A stretch of DNA of 53,673 bases from Escherichia phage vB_EcoM_SA91KD, in the sequence record NC_079183; one strand, 5' to 3'. The notes under the pieces were generated by a model. That model did not search any database and was not told the DNA's origin. It was given only the letters and a program-made list of their open reading frames with translations. Position 1 is the first letter of the stretch, and the number at the start of each line of letters is the position of its first letter. Both the position numbers and the translations under genes were made by a program. Positions 1 to 42,784 of this stretch are shown piece after piece.

Positions 1-153
1 CGATTATATGCGAGAAGAGATTCGATGCGTTAGCGTCGTTTCTCTTTGAGCTAGAATAAAACAAGTAAATTAAATATTTATTTATTCCCAATATTGCTAC
101 AATATTAAGAGTAATATTAGGAATGCGTAAAGTTAAAACCAAATGGTACATGG

Positions 154-224
154 TCGGTCAACTGTATCTCCTTCGGAGAAGGTACTTGGACCAATCTTCG
201 TTCACGGTCGGTCAGCTGTATCTC
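154..224 (+). repeat. Two 19-bp direct repeats (ggtcggtca[a/g]ctgtatctc) about 52 bp apart in the 5' leader
   Basis: Read directly; a third partial copy (tacatggtcggt) lies near 3414 downstream of the RNAP gene. Confidence 0.6.
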
Positions 225-263
225 GCCGAAATTTGTTCGAACAGTGGTCCGACTATGAAATAA

Positions 264-294
264 TTTTTTTTTTTTATAATTTTTTTTTTATTTT
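264..294. repeat. T-rich homopolymer tracts (T12, ATAAT, T10)
   Basis: Read directly in the leader. Confidence 0.8.
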
Positions 295-570
295 CAATAT
301 TGCTACAGAATTAATGAGACTAGAATTCGTAACAAAGCTACGAGACTCGAATTGTTTCAATATTAACGAGACTCAATCTGTGACAATATTATAATTTTTT
401 ATTTTGAGGCGGCGGGGAGGGGAAGCCCAACGTCCTATCGGACTTAAAATACGGTCCCTACCCCCAACTTTTTCTACAGCCTATCGGCTTAATGATAACA
501 CCAAGTTAGGCGCTTCGCTTATGAGTCAAAGTCAACAGCCCGTGCTGTGCTAACATTGGCACAGGTTTGT

Positions 571-589
571 GATATTAGTTGGACGTGAA
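571..589 (+). promoter_or_regulatory. Variant copy of the recurring promoter-like box (gATATTAGTTGGAcGTGAa)
   Basis: Matches the ACATTAGTTGGATGTGA consensus seen at 10 other sites; about 160 nt upstream of the RNAP start. Confidence 0.35.
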
Positions 590-748
590 TTGTGTAATGG
601 CTACGCTATTATAATCCGTTTCAGTTAAATCATACACAATCTTGGAGACTTACAAATTGACTAGACTACTATCACCACTCAAACTATCAAATCCGTTGTT
701 CCTGCTATCACTGCTCTGGTATACCGTGCCAAAGAGAAACAGAACTAT

Positions 749-2602
749 ATGCAGCCCCAGACTTGTGCTATTGCTGCCTTAGCCATCTTCAAGATGATGA
801 CGTCTTTCACTCGTGATGACGTTGTTCCTGCCATCGCGATGGTTGAACTGGCTTCTGCTTCTATTGCTGATGCCAACCGTTATAACAACGATTTGAAAGC
901 AATGCACTATGTTGACCCAGCTATCAACCTGATTGGTTTGGCTAAGCACTTTGGCTTCATCACCATGAACGAAGACAAGTCATTCCAACAAACTGATACA
1001 TGGGTTGAACTGGTTACAACCAAAGATACCGCAGTGCCATTCACTGAGCGTGTCACTACTGAATCTCGTCGCAAGCCTTTCGTTAAAGGTGGCAAAGTTA
1101 AGCCATCCAAAACTCTGAAAGCTGCAATCGAATTCCTGCAAGATACTGAGTACCATGTGGAGACTGAGATGGTTCGCATCATTCAGTCCATGCTTGAGCA
1201 ACGTACTTATGGTGGCTTGCAGATGCCAGAAGCTATCCAGACTGAACTCCATGTTTGGAACAATGCTGTAGCAATGATGAATCAGGACACACTGTATTCT
1301 GACTACTTTGCTGACAACCGTGGTCGCCTGTATCATGTAGCATGTGCTGGTCCTAACCCACAATCATCTGACTTTGCTCGTTGCTTGTATTCTCACAATG
1401 TTGAGAACATCGTTAAGAAGTTTAACGAAGATGGTTCTACTACCATTGCATACAATATGTTCATGGCAGAGCTGGAAGATATTTCCGGTGGTGAATGGTG
1501 CACTGCTAAGCGTTTGACTTATGTTGCTCAGAATCCTGCTGGTTCACTTGCTCGCATGATGAACATGCCTAAAGCTGAACGTCCTTCCAAGCCATTCACT
1601 TATGTTCGTCTGGCTCTGGATTGGTTCAAGTTTGAGACTACAGGTGAATGCGATTCTCGTGTAGGCTTTGGCTTAGATGCTAAATGCTCTGGTACTCAAT
1701 ATCTGGCATTCATTGCTGGTAATATGGAAATGGCTCGTGCTACAGGTCTGGTTGATTCTGAGACTAAAGCATCTGACCCATACCAGCTATCTCTTCGTGA
1801 ACTGTTGAAGTTATTAGACCGTTCTTCAATGAAACCATCTCCTGAAATCATGGATGAATTCTTGAATCCGAAAGCTGGTCGTAAGTTTATCAAAACTCCA
1901 TACATGGCTATCCAATATGGTGGTGGTAAAGCTGCATTAACTGGTTCTTCTGACTTCATTAGCTACATGACAGAAGCTCTCCAGATTCCTATGGAGAAAG
2001 CTGAGGCATTTGCTGAACTGTGTGTAGAAGCAATCCATAACGCATTGGGTGCTAAGATTAACATGTTCATCGAGAAAGCTGCTGATGCTGCATACAACCG
2101 TTGTGTTGAACTTGGTAAAGAGTACATCACATACCGTCACACTGATGGTCAGGTTGTAATGAAGCCTTGCTTCCCATCTCGTGAAATCTGTGAGGCATTC
2201 AGCATTCGTGTTGACTCTCAAACTCGTGTCATCTTTGGTCAGATTCAGGAGAACAAGCCTTGGACCATTCGTGAGTCCAACCCAACTAAAGAAGAGTTCA
2301 AGCGTACCTTCGTTGTTAACTACATTCAAGGTATTGACGCATTGGTTGCTCGTACTGTTGCAGTTAAAGCTAAAGAAGCTGGTCTTCGTGGCTTTACTTC
2401 AATCCATGATTGTTTCCGTTGCTGCTTAGCTGATGCTCCACGTATGATGGAAGTTATTCGTGCAGCATATGTTGAAATCTTTGTAACCAACAATCAATTC
2501 GAGAATCTGTCTAAGCAACTTGGTGGCATTCAGATGTATCATGAGAACATCGTAACCGAAGAGCTTCTGATGAGCGAACACGCTTACTACTTCTGTCAAT
2601 AA
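749..2602 (+). CDS. T7-family single-subunit RNA polymerase, compact form (617 aa)
   Basis: Motifs DNRGR (T7 DWRGR), GLDAKCSGTQ (motif A), RKFIKTPYMAIQYGG (motif B), SIHDCF (motif C). In-frame stop at 662-664 blocks any upstream extension. Confidence 0.85.
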   Translation: MQPQTCAIAALAIFKMMTSFTRDDVVPAIAMVELASASIADANRYNNDLKAMHYVDPAINLIGLAKHFGFITMNEDKSFQQTDTWVELVTTKDTAVPFTERVTTESRRKPFVKGGKVKPSKTLKAAIEFLQDTEYHVETEMVRIIQSMLEQRTYGGLQMPEAIQTELHVWNNAVAMMNQDTLYSDYFADNRGRLYHVACAGPNPQSSDFARCLYSHNVENIVKKFNEDGSTTIAYNMFMAELEDISGGEWCTAKRLTYVAQNPAGSLARMMNMPKAERPSKPFTYVRLALDWFKFETTGECDSRVGFGLDAKCSGTQYLAFIAGNMEMARATGLVDSETKASDPYQLSLRELLKLLDRSSMKPSPEIMDEFLNPKAGRKFIKTPYMAIQYGGGKAALTGSSDFISYMTEALQIPMEKAEAFAELCVEAIHNALGAKINMFIEKAADAAYNRCVELGKEYITYRHTDGQVVMKPCFPSREICEAFSIRVDSQTRVIFGQIQENKPWTIRESNPTKEEFKRTFVVNYIQGIDALVARTVAVKAKEAGLRGFTSIHDCFRCCLADAPRMMEVIRAAYVEIFVTNNQFENLSKQLGGIQMYHENIVTEELLMSEHAYYFCQ

Positions 2603-2718
2603 GAGAAACAGGGCTGTCATCGAAAGGTGATGGCCCTTTCTTTATTCTTTATTAATTAAATCCTTTAATTCCCAATATTCAAGCAATATTGCTGCATGTA
2701 ATATTGTTTCAATATTCG

Positions 2719-2736
2719 ACATTAGTTGGATGTGAA
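2719..2736 (+). promoter_or_regulatory. Promoter-like box ACATTAGTTGGATGTGAA
   Basis: Exact consensus copy, intergenic. Confidence 0.45.
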
Positions 2737-3568
2737 GTAACAGAATACGGAGAAGTATTCCGCATGTCATGTTGAAATCATTCTAGAAACATTTCAGCAT
2801 GTCAACTAAACATACAGTGTTGTAATGATGTGGCAATCATTGAACTCCCTGTCTTTGGCCGGACAAAGTTCCAACAACCATGTGTGAAGTAGGAATTAGA
2901 TTCGAAACTGTTCTTCAACTAAAGCATGTTCAATTGCGACAATATTGCTCCATCTCCTATTATAAAGGCCCACCCACAAGCCGGGAGATAACTTTAGCAA
3001 GACTGGAACTTTTGGACATGCTTCTTTCTTTCAATCAGAATTCGAAAGAAGAGCAGAGTCGGAGCAAAGCCGCGAAACTAATCCCGTAGCCCGCCCCGAT
3101 TTTGAGCAACAAATATTGTGACAATATTGTCGCAGTATGGCATGTAAATATTGCTACAAATTGGCATGTTGGAATGTGGCAGAATTGTTAGAGGACTAAT
3201 CACCTCGAAGATACAATCGTCTACCAATCTGGCATGTTAATTTTGTAACAGTATTTGTGCCAATTTCGCATGTAATAGCTGTATCAGTATTGACCCAATA
3301 TTCTTGCAACCCGCATGAATACTGGCTTCCAGCCAAGCGAAGGCTTTATCATCGCATGTAATATTGTGACAATATTGGGATAAAACCCTTTATTTAATTG
3401 GTTTTATTATGCTGTACATGGTCGGTTTTCCGTACCTGCTTGCTCCAATCTTAATGTGCCAAATACGTTAAGTATGGGAGTAAACCTGTAATTAATGACG
3501 CATGTTTAATTGTGACAAAATTCGTCTATTTGGCAGATGAATTAGTTGCAATTAAGCATGTCCATTTA

Positions 3569-3590
3569 TCATTAGTTGTATGTGAATAAG
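3569..3590 (+). promoter_or_regulatory. Promoter-like box variant (tCATTAGTTGtATGTGAa)
   Basis: Close match, about 280 nt upstream of the first early gene. Confidence 0.35.
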
Positions 3591-3873
3591 ACCAAATCTC
3601 TGTAAATTCTGCTGAAATTGTGTGACAGATTTTAGAGAGATTATGTCTCCAAGCTAATCATTGTAGTTTTTAGACACTTTGTGTGTCACATATATAGCCT
3701 GTGAAAAACGTGTGGTATATTGCTGGATTGCGACGCGCCCACCAGACTAGGAAGTCACTGACGGCGGCACACAGGAATACTATATAACTCCCTACAACTT
3801 TAAGGTGGATTGAGGTAAGACAAGACCTCCACAATCGTTCTGTAGGGAGTTTTCTTTAACTTAGGAGAATAAA

Positions 3874-4092
3874 ATGACTCGTTTTAAAGATTTGGAAGAT
3901 GGTGCAATCTTCTTTACGCGTGGCGGAGAACATCTGCAAAAAGTTTTGGAAGATGACATTAATGTAAATGCTGTATTCGTTGGTGATTCTAGCATTGGTG
4001 TTTTATTAAATGACAATGAAAGAACTTTTACAGAAGAGGAGTTTAAAGAAATCTCAGCTTCTGATTCAGTTCAAGAGCCAATTTCAGTTTAA
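3874..4092 (+). CDS. Hypothetical early protein (72 aa, acidic)
   Basis: ATG preceded by aggag RBS; first gene after the non-coding region. Confidence 0.6.
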   Translation: MTRFKDLEDGAIFFTRGGEHLQKVLEDDINVNAVFVGDSSIGVLLNDNERTFTEEEFKEISASDSVQEPISV

Positions 4093-4130
4093 TATGGGGG
4101 GGGGAGTAACCCTCCAACTTCGGAGCTATA

Positions 4131-4382
4131 ATGGACACCATCAACAAACGTGTAAAATTTGCTGACCTGTATGAAGGTCAAATATTCACTTATAATTCTA
4201 TCAAGTGTATTAAGGTAGTGGGTGAGTGTGGTTTATACAACACTGTAAGATTTCACGACCCAAGCCGGGCATGTAAACTTAAAGACAGTGATGTTGTTGA
4301 AATCGAAATCGCATTAGAGCCAGATGGTTCAAATGATGAAATCATTCTGCGTAAAACTGTTGGATACACTAAAGGATTCTAA
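4131..4382 (+). CDS. Hypothetical early protein (83 aa)
   Basis: ORF with RBS; tightly packed operon. Confidence 0.55.
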   Translation: MDTINKRVKFADLYEGQIFTYNSIKCIKVVGECGLYNTVRFHDPSRACKLKDSDVVEIEIALEPDGSNDEIILRKTVGYTKGF

Positions 4383-12044: not shown

Positions 12045-12110
12045 TTCCAGGCGGGTTTCTTCGAAGTGCCAAGCGGGTTTTGTACTCGCATTGGCCTTCT
12101 GCTTTAGTCT

Positions 12111-12130
12111 GAAACATTAGTGGGATTTGA
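12111..12130 (+). promoter_or_regulatory. Promoter-like box variant (gaaACATTAGTgGGATtTGA)
   Basis: First of three tandem copies in a non-coding kilobase. Confidence 0.4.
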
Positions 12131-12254
12131 TTCTGACCACTTAGGGAAGAAAGGCATTATACACTTATCGCCAAATGGGTGTCAAGCACTTTCTTCATTT
12201 ATTTTAATTTATTCTTATTATTCTCTTTGTTTGGAATATTGGAATAATTCTGAA

Positions 12255-12271
12255 ACATTAGTTGGAATTGA
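12255..12271 (+). promoter_or_regulatory. Promoter-like box (tctgaaACATTAGTTGGAaTTGA)
   Basis: Second tandem copy; shares the tctgaaac prefix with the 12111 and 14552 copies. Confidence 0.4.
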
Positions 12272-12391
12272 ATTAGTGTAATTCTGTCTGTACTCTTTTC
12301 CATTAGCAATTGTAGAGGGAGTCCACTGCAATAAGCGCAGCCTCAAACAACCAAGTCTGGACAACTTGGGAAGAGAGTGCAGCACAAAATT

Positions 12392-12408
12392 ACATTAGTT
12401 GGAGTTGA
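12392..12408 (+). promoter_or_regulatory. Promoter-like box (tACATTAGTTGGAgTTGA)
   Basis: Third tandem copy. Confidence 0.4.
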
Positions 12409-12690
12409 AGAAACAACATCAGATAATAACTTTGTAACTCGGTAGACCGTTGCGGCCGCATCGTGCGAGAATGTTCGACTCATTCTACAAAGTTATTTTC
12501 GATGGAATGTTTCCATCATATACATTTATCTTTTAACATAGGCCAAAGGGCCGGAATACTTATTCGCAGAAAAGCTATTCACTTGTTATAGGCGATGTAT
12601 TGGGATGAATTGGAACTAAATAAGCAAGCTGTTAGGGCTGAATAATTAGAGGGTTATGCCTCATGCTTATGTTAGTCATTCGAAAATAGG

Positions 12691-15878: not shown

Positions 15879-15888
15879 CCCCCCCCCC
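15879..15888. repeat. C10 homopolymer tract
   Basis: Read directly, 8 nt upstream of the tRNA-like element. Confidence 0.85.
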
Positions 15889-15895
15889 ATTATTT

Positions 15896-15982
15896 GGACG
15901 AGTAGCTCAGAAGGTCTGCTCCAGAGCTGGTAGAGCAATCTGTTCGACAGATGTGTCGTTGGTTCGAATCCAACCTCGTCCA
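15896..15982 (+). tRNA. tRNA-like element with atypical internal structure (possible pseudo-tRNA or non-canonical tRNA)
   Basis: Canonical 7-bp acceptor stem (GGACGAG / CTCGTCC) and T-arm (GTTGG-TTCGAAT-CCAAC) with discriminator A; the 55 nt between them cannot be folded by eye into standard D and anticodon arms. Anticodon not assignable. Confidence 0.35.
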
Positions 15983-16015
15983 CCCACTTTAATAATTCGC
16001 AATACTGGAGTCCTT

Positions 16016-27812: not shown

Positions 27813-27998
27813 ATGCGCACAATACAATGTCCTAACTGCCATTATGAAATTGCAGAAGATGATTTCATAACGCAACAATGTCCTATCTGTGATTCATATA
27901 TGCCACTAAATCGCCTGTATTTAAAGGCCGATTCTGGTTTAGGCAGCATCATTCGCATCAATCCCGTGCAAACTCAGCCATTAGTGGATTGTGATTAA
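27813..27998 (+). CDS. Zinc-ribbon small protein (61 aa)
   Basis: CPNCH...CPICD; ggag RBS. Confidence 0.5.
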   Translation: MRTIQCPNCHYEIAEDDFITQQCPICDSYMPLNRLYLKADSGLGSIIRINPVQTQPLVDCD

Positions 27999-33083: not shown

Positions 33084-33658
33084 CGCCACCTCCAGCTCCT
33101 ACAGTATCTGCTGTTGTAGGGGCTGTAACTGCGGACGCATCTGCCTCTGATGCTACTGTAACTGTGGACAAACTGTTTGAATTTGAGAACTCCGCAGCAA
33201 CAGATTATAACTTCGCTGTTACACCTCCTGTGACTGGTGTTTCTGTGGCGGCAAACGGCACTGTGACTGTACTTAGTGCAACGACTACAGCCACTTCTGC
33301 GATAATCAAGGCAACGAATAAAACAGAATCTGGTGTAACTGCATCTAAACAGATTACGATTAAGCCTAAACCTCCTGCACCTACGGTGTCTGCTGTAGCT
33401 GGAGTTGTAACGGCTGATGCGTCTTCTACTGATGCCACTGTAACTGTAGACAAGCTGTTCAAGTTTGGTAACTCTACAGCAACAGACTACACCTACGCTA
33501 TTACGCCTCCTGTGACTGGCGTTTCTGTGGCTGCAAATGGTACTGTAACCGTCTTGAATGAGGCAACTACCGATACCTCTGCCACGGTTAAGGCAACAAA
33601 CAAAACAACCTCCAGCGTGACTGCAACTAAAGAAATTGCTATTACGCCGAAGTCTTAA
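33077..33658 (+). CDS. Frameshift extension ORF encoding two tandem Ig-like (BIG-type) domains
   Basis: Open in the -1 frame from the slippery site; no ATG or RBS of its own; two about 95-aa repeats (PPAPTVSAV...TVDKLF.F.NS.ATDY...ITPPVTGVSVAANGTVTVL...KATNKT). Confidence 0.55.
   Translation, partial: AVTPPPAPTVSAVVGAVTADASASDATVTVDKLFEFENSAATDYNFAVTPPVTGVSVAANGTVTVLSATTTATSAIIKATNKTESGVTASKQITIKPKPPAPTVSAVAGVVTADASSTDATVTVDKLFKFGNSTATDYTYAITPPVTGVSVAANGTVTVLNEATTDTSATVKATNKTTSSVTATKEIAITPKS
33086..33655 (+). repeat. Tandem duplication, two units of about 285 nt each
   Basis: Units at about 33086-33370 and 33371-33655 are clearly homologous at nucleotide and protein level. Confidence 0.8.
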
Positions 33659-42768: not shown

Positions 42769-42784
42769 CATTAGTTGAATATGT
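42769..42784 (+). promoter_or_regulatory. Promoter-like box variant (ttACATTAGTTGaATaTGta)
   Basis: Only copy noticed in the late region; about 25 nt upstream of the baseplate gene block. Confidence 0.4.

What the first reader, a model, noticed from the sequence alone, without database searches (positions are those of the whole stretch)
2603..3873. GCATGT-box array in an AT-rich region just downstream of the RNAP gene: candidate origin / early promoter cluster
About twelve GCATGT(a/t)AAT-type boxes at 40-150-bp spacing plus caatattgctac motifs (also present in the leader near 90 and 295) fill 1.27 kb without genes. In T7 the primary replication origin, with promoters and an AT-rich segment, lies immediately downstream of gene 1. 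Some boxes resemble extended -10 elements (TGtAATAT), so host-RNAP early promoters are also possible.
Basis: partly seen in the sequence, partly recalled or inferred. Interest (0 to 1): 0.5.

Follow-up and report, generated by a model that had tools for sequence, protein, structure and literature searches.

The report
Structured noncoding RNA array after RNAP gene
The repeated GCATGT boxes downstream of this phage's RNA polymerase gene are real, but rather than promoter or origin boxes they look like the paired strands of a conserved series of hairpins (with one loop-loop contact) in a non-coding transcript of unknown function that no RNA database lists.

Summary
The window is a complete Carltongylesvirus genome (family Chaseviridae, ST32/GJ1-like). 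Eleven GCATGT and one GCATGA lie on the + strand in 2694-3561 (0.19 expected, P about 3e-16). AATATTG-N3-CAATATT palindromes cluster there and in the leader, and no conserved ORF is present.

A different motif, CATTAGTTGGAtgTGAA, recurs about 10 times in intergenic gaps and is the likely phage-polymerase promoter. Two copies (2720, 3570) bracket the array. Sigma-70 geometry is not enriched or conserved, and the boxes are not regularly spaced iterons.

GCAUGU is self-complementary through G.U pairs. The boxes and their flanks form sense-strand hairpins with z-scores of -3 to -6, weaker on the antisense strand. Compensatory changes across five or more genera support them. A 7-bp kissing interaction (3458-3464 with 3528-3534) covaries perfectly in nine taxa. 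Rfam has no match.

The region also straddles the right end of the roughly 2.6-kb direct terminal repeat (about 3062, mapped from four relatives).

Best reading: a structured non-coding leader RNA made from the 2720 promoter, whose function (processing, regulation, possibly replication priming) is untested.

The parts
2610..2637 (+). Intrinsic terminator hairpin (GNRA-type loop, then a T-run) ending the RNA polymerase transcription unit
   Evidence: 12-bp stem followed by TTCTTTATTC. Relatives carry a UUCG-loop hairpin at the same place.
2674..2716 (+). Two AATATT-type palindromes flanking GCATGT box 1 (2694-2699)
   Evidence: Model R1 scores 2694-2767 as a paralogous hairpin module (E 1.4e-4).
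2720..2736 (+). Copy P2 of the genome-wide motif CATTAGTTGGATGTGAA, the candidate phage-RNAP promoter that would drive rightward transcription of the array
   Evidence: about 10 + strand copies. The copies checked against the ORF list lie in intergenic gaps. The PYps23T record ends its terminal repeat inside this motif.
2743..2760 (+). Conserved hairpin GAAUAC-GGAGAA-GUAUUC just downstream of P2
   Evidence: Read from the sequence. Conserved in 4HA13, PP101, PM1 and L020/L024.
2762..2804 (+). Hairpin containing GCATGT boxes 2 (2762) and 3 (2797); CAUGU 2768-2772 pairs with box 3
   Evidence: Inverted repeat I3. MFE fold. Sense z = -3.35 against antisense -0.60. Box-box pairing in the consensus fold.
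2842..2871 (+). Conserved hairpin GAACU..cccUG(UC/AG)...(GA/CU)CAaAGUUC
   Evidence: 9 pairs, two of them with a compensatory double change in the window lineage. Invariant arms in 7 taxa.
2922..3023 (+). Long imperfect inverted repeat: box 4 (2924) pairs with its exact complement ACATGC (3016-3021). It encloses the near-invariant element CCTATTATAAAGGCCCACCCACAAGCCGGGA (2956-2986).
   Evidence: I4. MFE fold. z = -3.5 sense and -2.2 antisense. The 31-nt element is conserved even in the most distant lineage, L032. No consensus helix was recovered across genera for the long arms.
3060..3065 (.). Inferred right end of the long direct terminal repeat (DTR). The left end maps to about 449-454, giving a repeat of about 2.6 kb that holds the RNAP gene.
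   Evidence: By homology with Y2 (the record carries both copies, DTR 1-2608), PM1 (DTR 1-2665), and 4HA13 and Myduc (PhageTerm 3120 and 3202). Not measured for this phage. PYps23T was reported differently (window 584/2730).
3106..3139 (+). Two overlapping palindromes (AATATTGTGACAATATT at 3112-3128 and AATATTGTCGCAGTATG at 3123-3139) forming a local hairpin
   Evidence: -13.4 kcal/mol for 3106-3145.
3140..3262 (+). Large hairpin domain. Its core, 3163-3238, is closed by box 6 (3164) paired with box 7 (3232). It contains an inner hairpin GAGG-ACUAAUCA-CCUC. Box 5 (3140) lies in the outer stem.
   Evidence: RNAalifold with pair counts on 7 taxa: 88% of cells paired against 82% in shuffles (0/500), 21 double-change cells against 10, slid controls 31-45%. 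3106-3265 folds at -56.8 kcal/mol, z = -6.0 sense against -4.0 antisense. The alternative neighbour pairings are not supported.
3268..3376 (+). Boxes 8 (3268), GCATGA (3313) and 9 (3354). A small covarying hairpin AGCC-AAGCGAA-GGCU (3331-3345) is followed by UUUAUC, then the best-conserved unit GCATGTAATATTGTGACAATATT (3354-3376).
   Evidence: Helices 6 and 7 of A4 carry compensatory changes. TTGTGAC is invariant across genera. The MFE fold pairs 3313-3317 with 3355-3359.
3377..3416 (+). AT- and T-rich spacer (GGGAUAAAACCC, then T-runs)
   Evidence: AT-rich in all genera but not conserved in sequence.
3452..3470 (+). Hairpin whose loop CCAAA (3459-3463, within GCCAAAU 3458-3464) forms the kissing interaction
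   Evidence: the stem has 3 pairs with compensatory changes. The loop pairs with 3528-3534 in 9 of 9 taxa.
3500..3561 (+). About 26-bp hairpin closed by box 10 (3500) paired with box 11 (3556); apical loop AUUUGGC (3528-3534)
   Evidence: 7 of 19 pairs have compensatory changes, and each pair of the apical stem has 5-6 double changes with none broken. z = -5.8 sense against -3.2 antisense. Model R1 scores 81.7 bits on the sense strand and 23.6 on the antisense. There is one 57-82-bit + strand hit in each of the 15 Cleopatravirinae loci that gave a match; L032 gave none.
3570..3586 (+). Copy P3 of the promoter-like motif (CATTAGTTGTATGTGAA). In several relatives this copy reads ATTAGTTGCATGTGAA, so it contains a GCATGT box.
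3788..3853 (+). Strong hairpin plus UUUU immediately before the first downstream gene (RBS about 3861, ATG 3874)
   Evidence: MFE fold. z = -3.5. Conserved in Carltongylesvirus and Sabourvirus.
90..395 (+). Leader copies of the AATATTG-N3-CAATATT-type element (90-106, 296-312, 348-364, about 380-395), without GCATGT boxes. They lie outside the terminal repeat, on its left flank.
573..589 (+). Copy P1 of the promoter-like motif, upstream of the RNAP gene

Best explanation
The 1.27-kb stretch is the conserved non-coding junction region of Cleopatravirinae chaseviruses. The GCATGT boxes are neither promoter hexamers nor iterons. In the rightward (sense) strand, GCAUGU pairs with another GCAUGU (G.U, C-G, A-U, U-A, G-C, U.G). 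Its usual flanks, box-(A)AUAUUG-UGAC on the 5' side and GUYR-CAAUAUU-box on the 3' side, are mutually complementary.

The array therefore folds into at least five hairpin domains clamped by box-box duplexes, plus a 7-bp loop-loop (kissing) contact.

I infer three further steps.
1. The folded molecule is RNA.
2. It is made by the phage's own small T7-like RNA polymerase from the promoter-like motif at 2720. A second start lies at 3570, and a strong hairpin with a U-run at 3788-3853 precedes the first gene.
3. It acts as a structured leader or non-coding RNA. Its long, near-continuous duplexes (17+9 bp and longer) are the kind of substrate host RNase III cuts, so processing or stabilisation that gates expression of the downstream genes is the most likely role.

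Shown by computation: box enrichment, orientation and conservation; hairpins with covariation; the kissing loop; stronger folding on the sense than the antisense strand.

Inferred: RNA rather than single-stranded DNA, the transcription start, and any function.
For: Enrichment and strand bias.

Conservation: boxes are conserved at orthologous positions in Carltongylesvirus, Sabourvirus, Suwonvirus, Loessnervirus and Myducvirus while the sequence between them varies.

Motif shape: the logo around 77 boxes shows downstream nAAtaTTGtgACAA and upstream caAtt, which are complementary arms.

Pairing partners: the MFE fold of 2731-3873 puts nearly every box in a stem. The partners are 3164/3232, 3313/3354, 3500/3556, 2924 with ACATGC 3016-3021, and 2797 with CAUGU 2768-2772. 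The same holds in 4HA13, Myduc and Y2.

Folding energy: z = -3 to -6 on the sense strand and weaker on the antisense strand, for example -56.8 against -43.7 kcal/mol and -31.9 against -18.7 kcal/mol. Coding controls give -0.4 to -1.4.

Covariation:
- Domain 3163-3238.
- Hairpin 3500-3561.
- Module 3417-3561 with the pseudoknot: 92.6% of cells paired against 79.7% in shuffles, 14 pairs and 37 cells compensatory against 8.1 and 12.3, 0/500 shuffles as high, slid controls at most 41%.
- Kissing loop: 100% paired in 9 taxa, with A-U to G-C and A-U to U-A double changes.

A covariance model of one hairpin finds paralogues only inside the array and only on the + strand, and orthologues in 15 related loci.

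The promoter-like motif sits immediately upstream at 2720, and all genes read rightward.
Against: No transcript data exist, so the promoter role of CATTAGTTGGA and the existence of the RNA are inferred.

Because GCAUGU is self-complementary, folding programs will pair boxes regardless. The invariant box pairs carry no covariation information, and support comes from the adjacent helices and the kissing loop.

The structures were derived from the same small alignments (7-9 taxa) on which they were counted.

Strict conservation of G1 and U6, never ACAUGU or GCAUGC, implies sequence-specific recognition that pairing alone does not explain.

The long inverted repeat 2922-3023 gave no consensus helix across genera.

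Single-stranded + strand DNA would satisfy the same covariation.

The hairpins are confined to this one region, unlike T7's dispersed RNase III sites.
Confidence: 0.55

Rival explanations
1. T7-style replication origin. Phage-polymerase transcripts from the 2720/3570 promoters prime DNA synthesis in the following AT-rich DNA. The structured transcript could serve as a pre-primer, as in ColE1 RNA II or mitochondrial R-loop priming. This can coexist with the RNA-structure finding.
For: The map position matches T7 phi1.1A/B plus origin (established knowledge of T7). Two promoter-like motifs lie in the region. AT- and T-rich tracts occur at 3377-3416, and GC is 0.32-0.36 locally. GC skew is about 0 over 1-3000 and +0.10 to +0.13 from 3000 onward. 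The replication genes seen in annotated relatives (DNA polymerase, DNA ligase) and listed in family descriptions (primase/helicase) are consistent with a T7-like scheme.
Against: There is no regular iteron spacing, and the boxes are explained by hairpin pairing. AT-richness is modest. The skew change coincides with the polymerase gene and is not specific. A second non-coding region, 12045-12690, has three tandem promoter copies and a long T-rich tract and fits the T7 origin pattern at least as well. The repeat end falls in the middle of the array.
Confidence: 0.15
2. Signals for terminal-repeat duplication and packaging. The oriented boxes and hairpins act in DNA, for example in + strand DNA displaced during repeat duplication, or as terminase sites. 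The analogy is with the short-repeat arrays beside T7's terminal repeat.
For: The array straddles the inferred right end of the repeat (about 3062), with 4 boxes inside and 8 outside. The palindromes also flank the left end, in the leader. The inverted repeat 2922-3023, with a perfect Watson-Crick box/antibox pair, ends 40 bp from the repeat end. Sequence to the right of the two ends is weakly similar. From memory, T7 has about 12 oriented CCTAAAG heptamers next to its repeat and needs polymerase pausing at the concatemer junction.
Against: Helices rich in invariant G.U pairs and a kissing-loop contact are typical of RNA and would be weak in DNA. The best-supported hairpins lie 100-500 bp beyond the repeat end. 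The repeat ends were not measured for this phage, and PYps23T was reported with different ends.
Confidence: 0.12
3. Binding sites in double-stranded DNA for a phage-encoded protein: operators or iterons recognising GCATGT-N6-TTGTGAC, or the AATATTG-N3-CAATATT palindrome.
For: The composite motif is about 18 bp with invariant GCATGT and TTGTGAC. The palindrome arms are conserved in sequence rather than by compensation. The motif changes to GTATGA-type boxes in Nefertitivirinae, which suggests co-evolution with a phage factor rather than a universal host factor.
Against: No DNA-binding domain was found in the ten downstream small proteins. A single orientation, pairwise complementary flanks, covariation and sense-antisense asymmetry are not expected of simple protein sites.
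Confidence: 0.08
4. Cluster of host sigma-70 early promoters.
For: TGn.A...T strings are enriched: 10 on the + strand and 9 on the - strand against 3.4 expected. One -35/-10 candidate, TTGCGA-18-TATTAT, lies at 2934-2963.
Against: The -35/-10 scan shows no enrichment, with 13 sites against 11.3 expected. The extended -10 matches are symmetric by-products of the palindrome. The -10 positions vary between genera while non-promoter positions are invariant. A strong terminator closes the host-transcribed polymerase unit at 2610-2637.
Confidence: 0.05

Closest known systems
T7 region just downstream of gene 1: promoters phi1.1A/B, RNase III site R1.1 and the primary origin (from established knowledge of T7)
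   Same: A non-coding control stretch directly after a single-subunit RNA polymerase gene. It contains phage-polymerase promoters and RNA hairpins, and all genes read in one direction.
   Different: It is about ten times longer and holds at least five long hairpins that share one self-complementary hexamer, plus a kissing loop. The hairpins are not dispersed between genes as T7 RNase III sites are. Neither cleavage nor origin activity has been shown. The polymerase is only about 620-646 aa and very divergent: a Pfam RNA_pol match only, and no PDB sequence hit.
Short-repeat arrays (oriented CCTAAAG heptamers) flanking the T7 terminal repeat (recalled from the T7 sequence, not tested here)
   Same: About a dozen copies of a short motif in a single orientation, right at or next to a direct terminal repeat boundary, of unknown function.
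   Different: The chasevirus boxes are positionally conserved across genera, are embedded in covarying hairpins and spread over 870 bp. The T7 heptamers are dense, simple direct repeats.
Kissing-loop regulatory RNAs such as ColE1 RNA I/RNA II
   Same: A 7-nt loop-loop Watson-Crick contact between two hairpins, in a transcript near a possible replication start.
   Different: The contact here is within one molecule (loops 65 nt apart), there is no antisense partner, and no link to priming has been shown.
Rfam families
   Same: None.
   Different: No Rfam 15 family matches 1-4200 on either strand, even at E up to 1.

Membership tests
Sigma-70 promoter cluster | TTGACA-like and TATAAT-like hexamers 16-18 bp apart, more frequent than chance and on the coding strand | tested here: not met
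   13 sites against 11.3 +/- 2.7 in shuffles; 9 of the 13 are on the - strand.
Sigma-70 promoter cluster | Extended -10 (TGnTATAAT-like) conserved at orthologous sites | tested here: not met
   The strings are enriched on both strands because of the palindrome. The hexamer positions, including -7T and -11A, change between genera while TTGTGAC stays invariant.
Iteron-type replication origin | Direct repeats of 17-22 bp at regular (helical) spacing next to an AT-rich unwinding element | tested here: not met
   Spacings are 68, 35, 127, 216, 24, 68, 36, 86, 146 and 56 bp. Only a 6-nt core is invariant.
T7-type primary origin | Phage-polymerase promoter(s) immediately upstream | tested here: inconclusive
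   Promoter-like motif copies lie at 2720 and 3570, but promoter activity itself is untested.
T7-type primary origin | Markedly AT-rich segment downstream of the promoters | tested here: inconclusive
   GC is 0.32-0.36 in some 200-nt windows against 0.44 for the genome, and there is a T-rich tract at 3377-3416.
T7-type primary origin | Replication initiates there | not testable with these tools
   Needs marker-frequency or 2D-gel mapping.
Phage single-subunit RNAP promoter (applied to the GCATGT unit itself) | One conserved motif of about 17-23 bp dispersed upstream of transcription units across the genome | tested here: not met
   The GCATGT/TTGTGAC units occur only in 2694-3561. The dispersed motif is a different one, CATTAGTTGGAtgTGAA.
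Conserved structured RNA element | Base pairs maintained by compensatory substitutions across lineages, beyond shuffled and slid controls | tested here: met
   (0/500 shuffles reach the observed values; slid controls 17-49% paired).
Conserved structured RNA element | Folding more stable than composition-matched shuffles, and specific to one strand | tested here: met
   (sense z down to -6.0, antisense weaker, coding controls about -1). (81.7 against 23.6 bits).
Conserved structured RNA element | The region is transcribed | not testable with these tools
   Inferred only from the upstream promoter-like motif and the single direction of all genes.
RNase III processing site | About two helical turns (20 bp or more) of largely continuous double-stranded RNA | tested here: met
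   Hairpin 3500-3561 has 17 + 9 bp; domain 3140-3262 is longer.
RNase III processing site | Cleavage by RNase III | not testable with these tools
   Needs an rnc host or an in-vitro cleavage assay.
Known Rfam family | Covariance-model match | tested here: not met
   no match at E up to 1.

The most novel reading that the evidence does not exclude
The array encodes a 0.85-1.1-kb structured non-coding RNA of a new family, built from hairpins clamped by two-fold-symmetric GCAUGU.GCAUGU duplexes plus a kissing loop. This RNA has a trans or architectural role. It could be a folded pre-primer or R-loop organiser that starts replication at the repeat/unique junction, as in ColE1 RNA II or mitochondrial priming by a T7-like polymerase. 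Alternatively it could be a decoy that ties up a dimeric host double-stranded-RNA enzyme such as RNase III.
Probability: 0.15. Interest if true: 0.8.

Novelty: new variant of a known kind. Interest (0 to 1): 0.55.

Why it matters
Chaseviruses are myoviruses that carry a very small, divergent T7-like RNA polymerase. The ICTV profile says their promoters are still unidentified, and I found no transcription study of them.

This analysis provides several things.
- It separates three signals that a reader could easily merge: a dispersed promoter-like motif, a palindrome family, and the GCATGT boxes.
- It places the terminal-repeat end inside the same region.
- It shows that the boxes belong to a conserved folded molecule with unusually clean covariation, including a loop-loop contact.

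That gives concrete, cheap experiments: transcript mapping, an RNase III mutant host, and compensatory mutants of five loop bases. It also offers a candidate new phage RNA family.

If the RNA turns out to prime replication or to titrate a host enzyme, it would be a new mechanism for this phage family. If it is only a processed leader, it is a useful but ordinary piece of annotation.

Tried and rejected
- Sigma-70 promoters: rejected after the scan, the extended -10 count and cross-genus conservation.
- Sigma-54 (TGGCAC-N5-TTGC): by eye the spacing is off by 1-2 nt, and the upstream G is not conserved in the box logo.
- Host-factor sites (CRP, Fur/Zur, TyrR, LexA, PhoB, OmpR): only recalled consensus sequences compared by eye, with no convincing fit. 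A universal host factor also fits poorly with the motif being different in a Vibrio chasevirus.
- GCATGT units as a second class of phage-polymerase promoter: considered because of the SP6-like GTGACA-N5-G. Rejected because the part after GTGACA is not conserved in Myduc and the units are confined to one region.
- Small ORFs or start-stop ATG-TAA mini-ORFs at the boxes: no Shine-Dalgarno sequence was seen by eye, ORF lengths are not conserved, and there are no PHROG hits.
- tRNA and Rfam searches: nothing in the region.
- Pfam and PHROG scans of ten downstream early proteins for a DNA- or RNA-binding partner: nothing informative.
- Alternative neighbour pairings 3140/3164 and 3232/3268, which model R1 scores as paralogous hairpin modules: not supported by covariation.
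- A consensus helix across genera for the 2922-3023 inverted repeat: not recovered.
- Literature: no paper describing the array or mapping chasevirus transcription starts was found. The GJ1 genome paper is not held. From memory it reported nine putative phage promoters and a sigma-70-like promoter before ORF1.
Full report
**Identity of the window.** The region 2400-4100 matches ST32/GJ1-like Escherichia and Yersinia myoviruses at 90-97% identity. ST32 is classified as Chaseviridae, Cleopatravirinae, Carltongylesvirus. The window shows no long internal repeat, so it appears to be a complete genome with the terminal repeat collapsed. ORF 749-2602 is the single-subunit RNA polymerase. It matches Pfam RNA_pol at residues 293-592 but has no sequence-level hit in the PDB. 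The ICTV profile states that chasevirus promoters are not yet identified and that genomes carry direct terminal repeats of about 3 kb.

**Check of the observation.**
- GCATGT occurs 19 times on the + strand of the genome. Eleven copies lie in 2694-3561, and a conserved GCATGA sits at 3313. Only one copy in the region is on the - strand.
- The outside rate predicts 0.19 copies (P about 3e-16). Dinucleotide shuffles of the region give a mean of 0.57 and a maximum of 4.
- The 'caatattgctac' element is a 17-bp palindrome, AATATTG-N3-CAATATT. Twelve of its 19 near-matches lie in the leader (90-364) and in 2674-3376.
- ORFs inside the stretch have no PHROG family, and other annotators treat them inconsistently.

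**A different motif is the dispersed, promoter-like one.** A search for recurrent 20-mers (up to 4 mismatches) found one dominant family, (tctgaaa)CATTAGTTGGAtgTGAa. It is always on the + strand, at 573, 2720, 3570, 7977, 12115, 12256, 12393, 14559, 22900 and 42769, with a weak copy at 27979. The copies checked against the ORF list (7977, 12115, 12256, 12393, 14559) fall in intergenic gaps, and the copy at 42769 follows a terminator-like hairpin. This is the pattern expected of phage-polymerase promoters, and it agrees with the statement that PHIRE predicted eight such promoters in PP101. Two copies bracket the GCATGT array. The GCATGT and palindrome motifs, by contrast, are confined to the two non-coding regions that flank the polymerase gene.

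**Host promoters and iterons.**
- The -35/-10 scan is not enriched: 13 sites against 11.3 expected.
- Extended -10-like strings are enriched on both strands because TGTGACAAT and TGTCACAAT are the two readings of the palindrome.
- In alignments of five to nine genera, GCATGT and TTGTGAC are invariant, while the positions that would be the -10 hexamer vary.
- Box spacing is irregular.

**Conservation.** Every Cleopatravirinae array examined has 9-14 + strand GCATGT and 0-1 on the - strand, many at orthologous positions. The genomes were 4HA13, PM1/PP101, Y2/SSEM1, Myduc and several metagenomic relatives. The Nefertitivirinae phage VPs20 has a non-coding stretch of similar length with different repeats, GTATGA-type boxes and a CTCGCCCACTAG motif. 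This argues for co-evolution with the phage lineage rather than with a universal host factor.

**What the boxes are.**
- A logo of 77 boxes shows nAAtaTTGtgACAA downstream and caAtt upstream. These are complementary arms.
- GCAUGU pairs with itself if G.U pairs are allowed. In the minimum-energy fold of 2731-3873, nearly all boxes sit in stems. The pairs are 3164 with 3232, 3313 with 3354, 3500 with 3556, 2924 with the lone antisense copy at 3016-3021, and 2797 with CAUGU at 2768-2772. The same tendency holds in 4HA13, Myduc and Y2.
- Sense-strand folding is far more stable than shuffles (z = -3 to -6) and more stable than the antisense strand. Coding controls give z = -0.4 to -1.4.

**Covariation.**
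- Domain 3163-3238: 88% of cells paired and 21 double-change cells, against 10 in shuffles (0/500). Slid controls give 31-45%. The alternative neighbour pairings are not supported.
- Hairpin 3500-3561: a 17-bp lower stem with several compensatory pairs, and an apical stem in which every pair changes on both sides in 5-6 of 9 taxa with none broken.
- Kissing loop: the apical loop AUUUGGC (3528-3534) is complementary to GCCAAAU (3458-3464), which lies in the loop of a neighbouring hairpin. The two covary perfectly: AUUUGGC/GCCAAAU, AAUUGGC/GCCAAUU, AUUCGGC/GCCGAAU and AAUCGGC/GCCGAUU. All 9 taxa are 100% paired.
- The whole 3417-3561 module with this contact exceeds all 500 shuffles on every measure.

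A covariance model of the hairpin finds paralogous modules only in the array and only on the + strand. It finds one strong orthologue in each of 15 related loci and none in the divergent L032 lineage or in VPs20. Rfam has nothing here.

**Terminal repeat.** The Y2 and PM1 records carry both repeat copies (DTR 1-2608 and 1-2665). 4HA13 and Myduc have PhageTerm-predicted repeats of 3120 and 3202 bp. All four map to homologous points: window about 449-454, inside a GC-rich hairpin of the leader, and about 3060-3065. The array therefore straddles the repeat's right end, with four boxes inside and eight outside. PYps23T, a congener of this phage, was reported with a 2339-bp repeat. Its ends fall exactly inside the promoter-like motif copies, at window 584 and 2730. 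I could not resolve this conflict.

**Mechanism.** The strand specificity, the many invariant G.U pairs, the one-sided A-U/G.U changes and a loop-loop contact all point to a folded single strand, most simply RNA. The promoter-like motif at 2720 lies just upstream, and every gene reads rightward. I therefore infer a structured leader or non-coding RNA made by the phage polymerase. It contains duplexes long enough for RNase III, and a strong hairpin with a U-run lies at 3788-3853 before the first gene. The function is not shown. Processing or regulation is my leading guess. A role of the region as a T7-like origin, or in repeat duplication and packaging through + strand DNA hairpins, remains possible. 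Strict conservation of G1 and U6 in the boxes suggests that something also reads the sequence itself.

**Verdict.** What is there is an undescribed, conserved, highly structured non-coding element at the junction between the terminal repeat and the unique sequence.

Noticed in passing
window 573, 2720, 3570, 7977, 12115, 12256, 12393, 14559, 22900, 42769 (weak copy at 27979): A dispersed, + strand-only motif (tctgaaa)CATTAGTTGGAtgTGAa; the copies checked lie in intergenic gaps. It is the likely phage-RNAP promoter consensus, although the ICTV profile says chasevirus promoters are unidentified.
   Followed up: partly
window 655-665, compared with L001 (ST32) 673-684: Relative to ST32 and PYps23T the window has a 6-bp insertion (TGACTA) that turns the annotated RNAP start ATG ACT into ATT GAC TAG. 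The ORF would then start at ATG 749, 29 codons later. This is either a real variant or an assembly error.
   Followed up: partly
window 12045-12690: A second non-coding region of about 650 bp holds three tandem promoter-motif copies and a long T-rich tract (12190-12235). It fits the T7 primary-origin pattern at least as well as the region under study.
   Followed up: no
L004/L005 (PYps23T) ends; window 584 and 2730: The published, experimentally derived terminal-repeat ends of PYps23T fall exactly inside two copies of the promoter-like motif (ATTAGTTGGA|YGTGAA). They disagree with the homologous ends of Y2, PM1, 4HA13 and Myduc. This could be a PCR or template-switch artefact at the 17-nt repeat, or a real difference.
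   Followed up: partly
window 425-500 and 3036-3111; L011, L023, L002, L006: Sequence 8-30 nt to the right of the two inferred repeat ends is weakly similar. The clearest case is Y2, with CGGTCCCTTAAC against CGTTCCCATAAC. This hints at a shared terminase recognition element. The left end lies in the loop region of a conserved GC-rich hairpin (about 416-472).
   Followed up: partly
L006 (Myduc) 2767-2984 and 2985-3202: An exact tandem duplication of about 218 bp, including a GCATGT box, ends precisely at the PhageTerm-predicted repeat boundary (3202). It may be an assembly artefact at the repeat edge.
   Followed up: no
L033/L009 (Vibrio phage VPs20) 2160-3200, 20770, 20997: This Nefertitivirinae phage has an analogous non-coding stretch of about 1 kb after the RNAP gene, but with GTATGA-type boxes (GGGTATGAAGATGTCTG) and a recurrent CTCGCCCACTAG motif at 2473, 3555, 5107 and 20997 that may be its promoter.
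   Followed up: partly
window 150-170, 204-224, 3417-3431: A third repeated element, (AT)GGTCGGT(C/T)..., occurs twice in the leader and once in the array and is conserved across genera. It contains TGGTC, which I recall as a preferred T7 primase site.
   Followed up: no
window 33088-33366 and 33370-33648: An adjacent direct duplication of about 280 bp at 75% identity inside the structural gene region.
   Followed up: no
window 15886-15986: A 92-nt tRNA-Ser(GCU) call, unusually long, is preceded by a run of about ten C and a weak promoter-motif match at 15888.
   Followed up: no
window 1-3000 against 3000-26000: GC skew is about 0 across the leader and RNAP gene, then rises to +0.05 to +0.13 from about 3 kb to about 26 kb, and returns to near 0 in the late region.
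   Followed up: no
window 3195-3202 and 3654-3663: The loop ACUAAUCA of the inner hairpin in domain 3163-3238 and the conserved block GCUAAUCAUU share CUAAUCA in the same orientation. No complementary partner was looked for.
   Followed up: no
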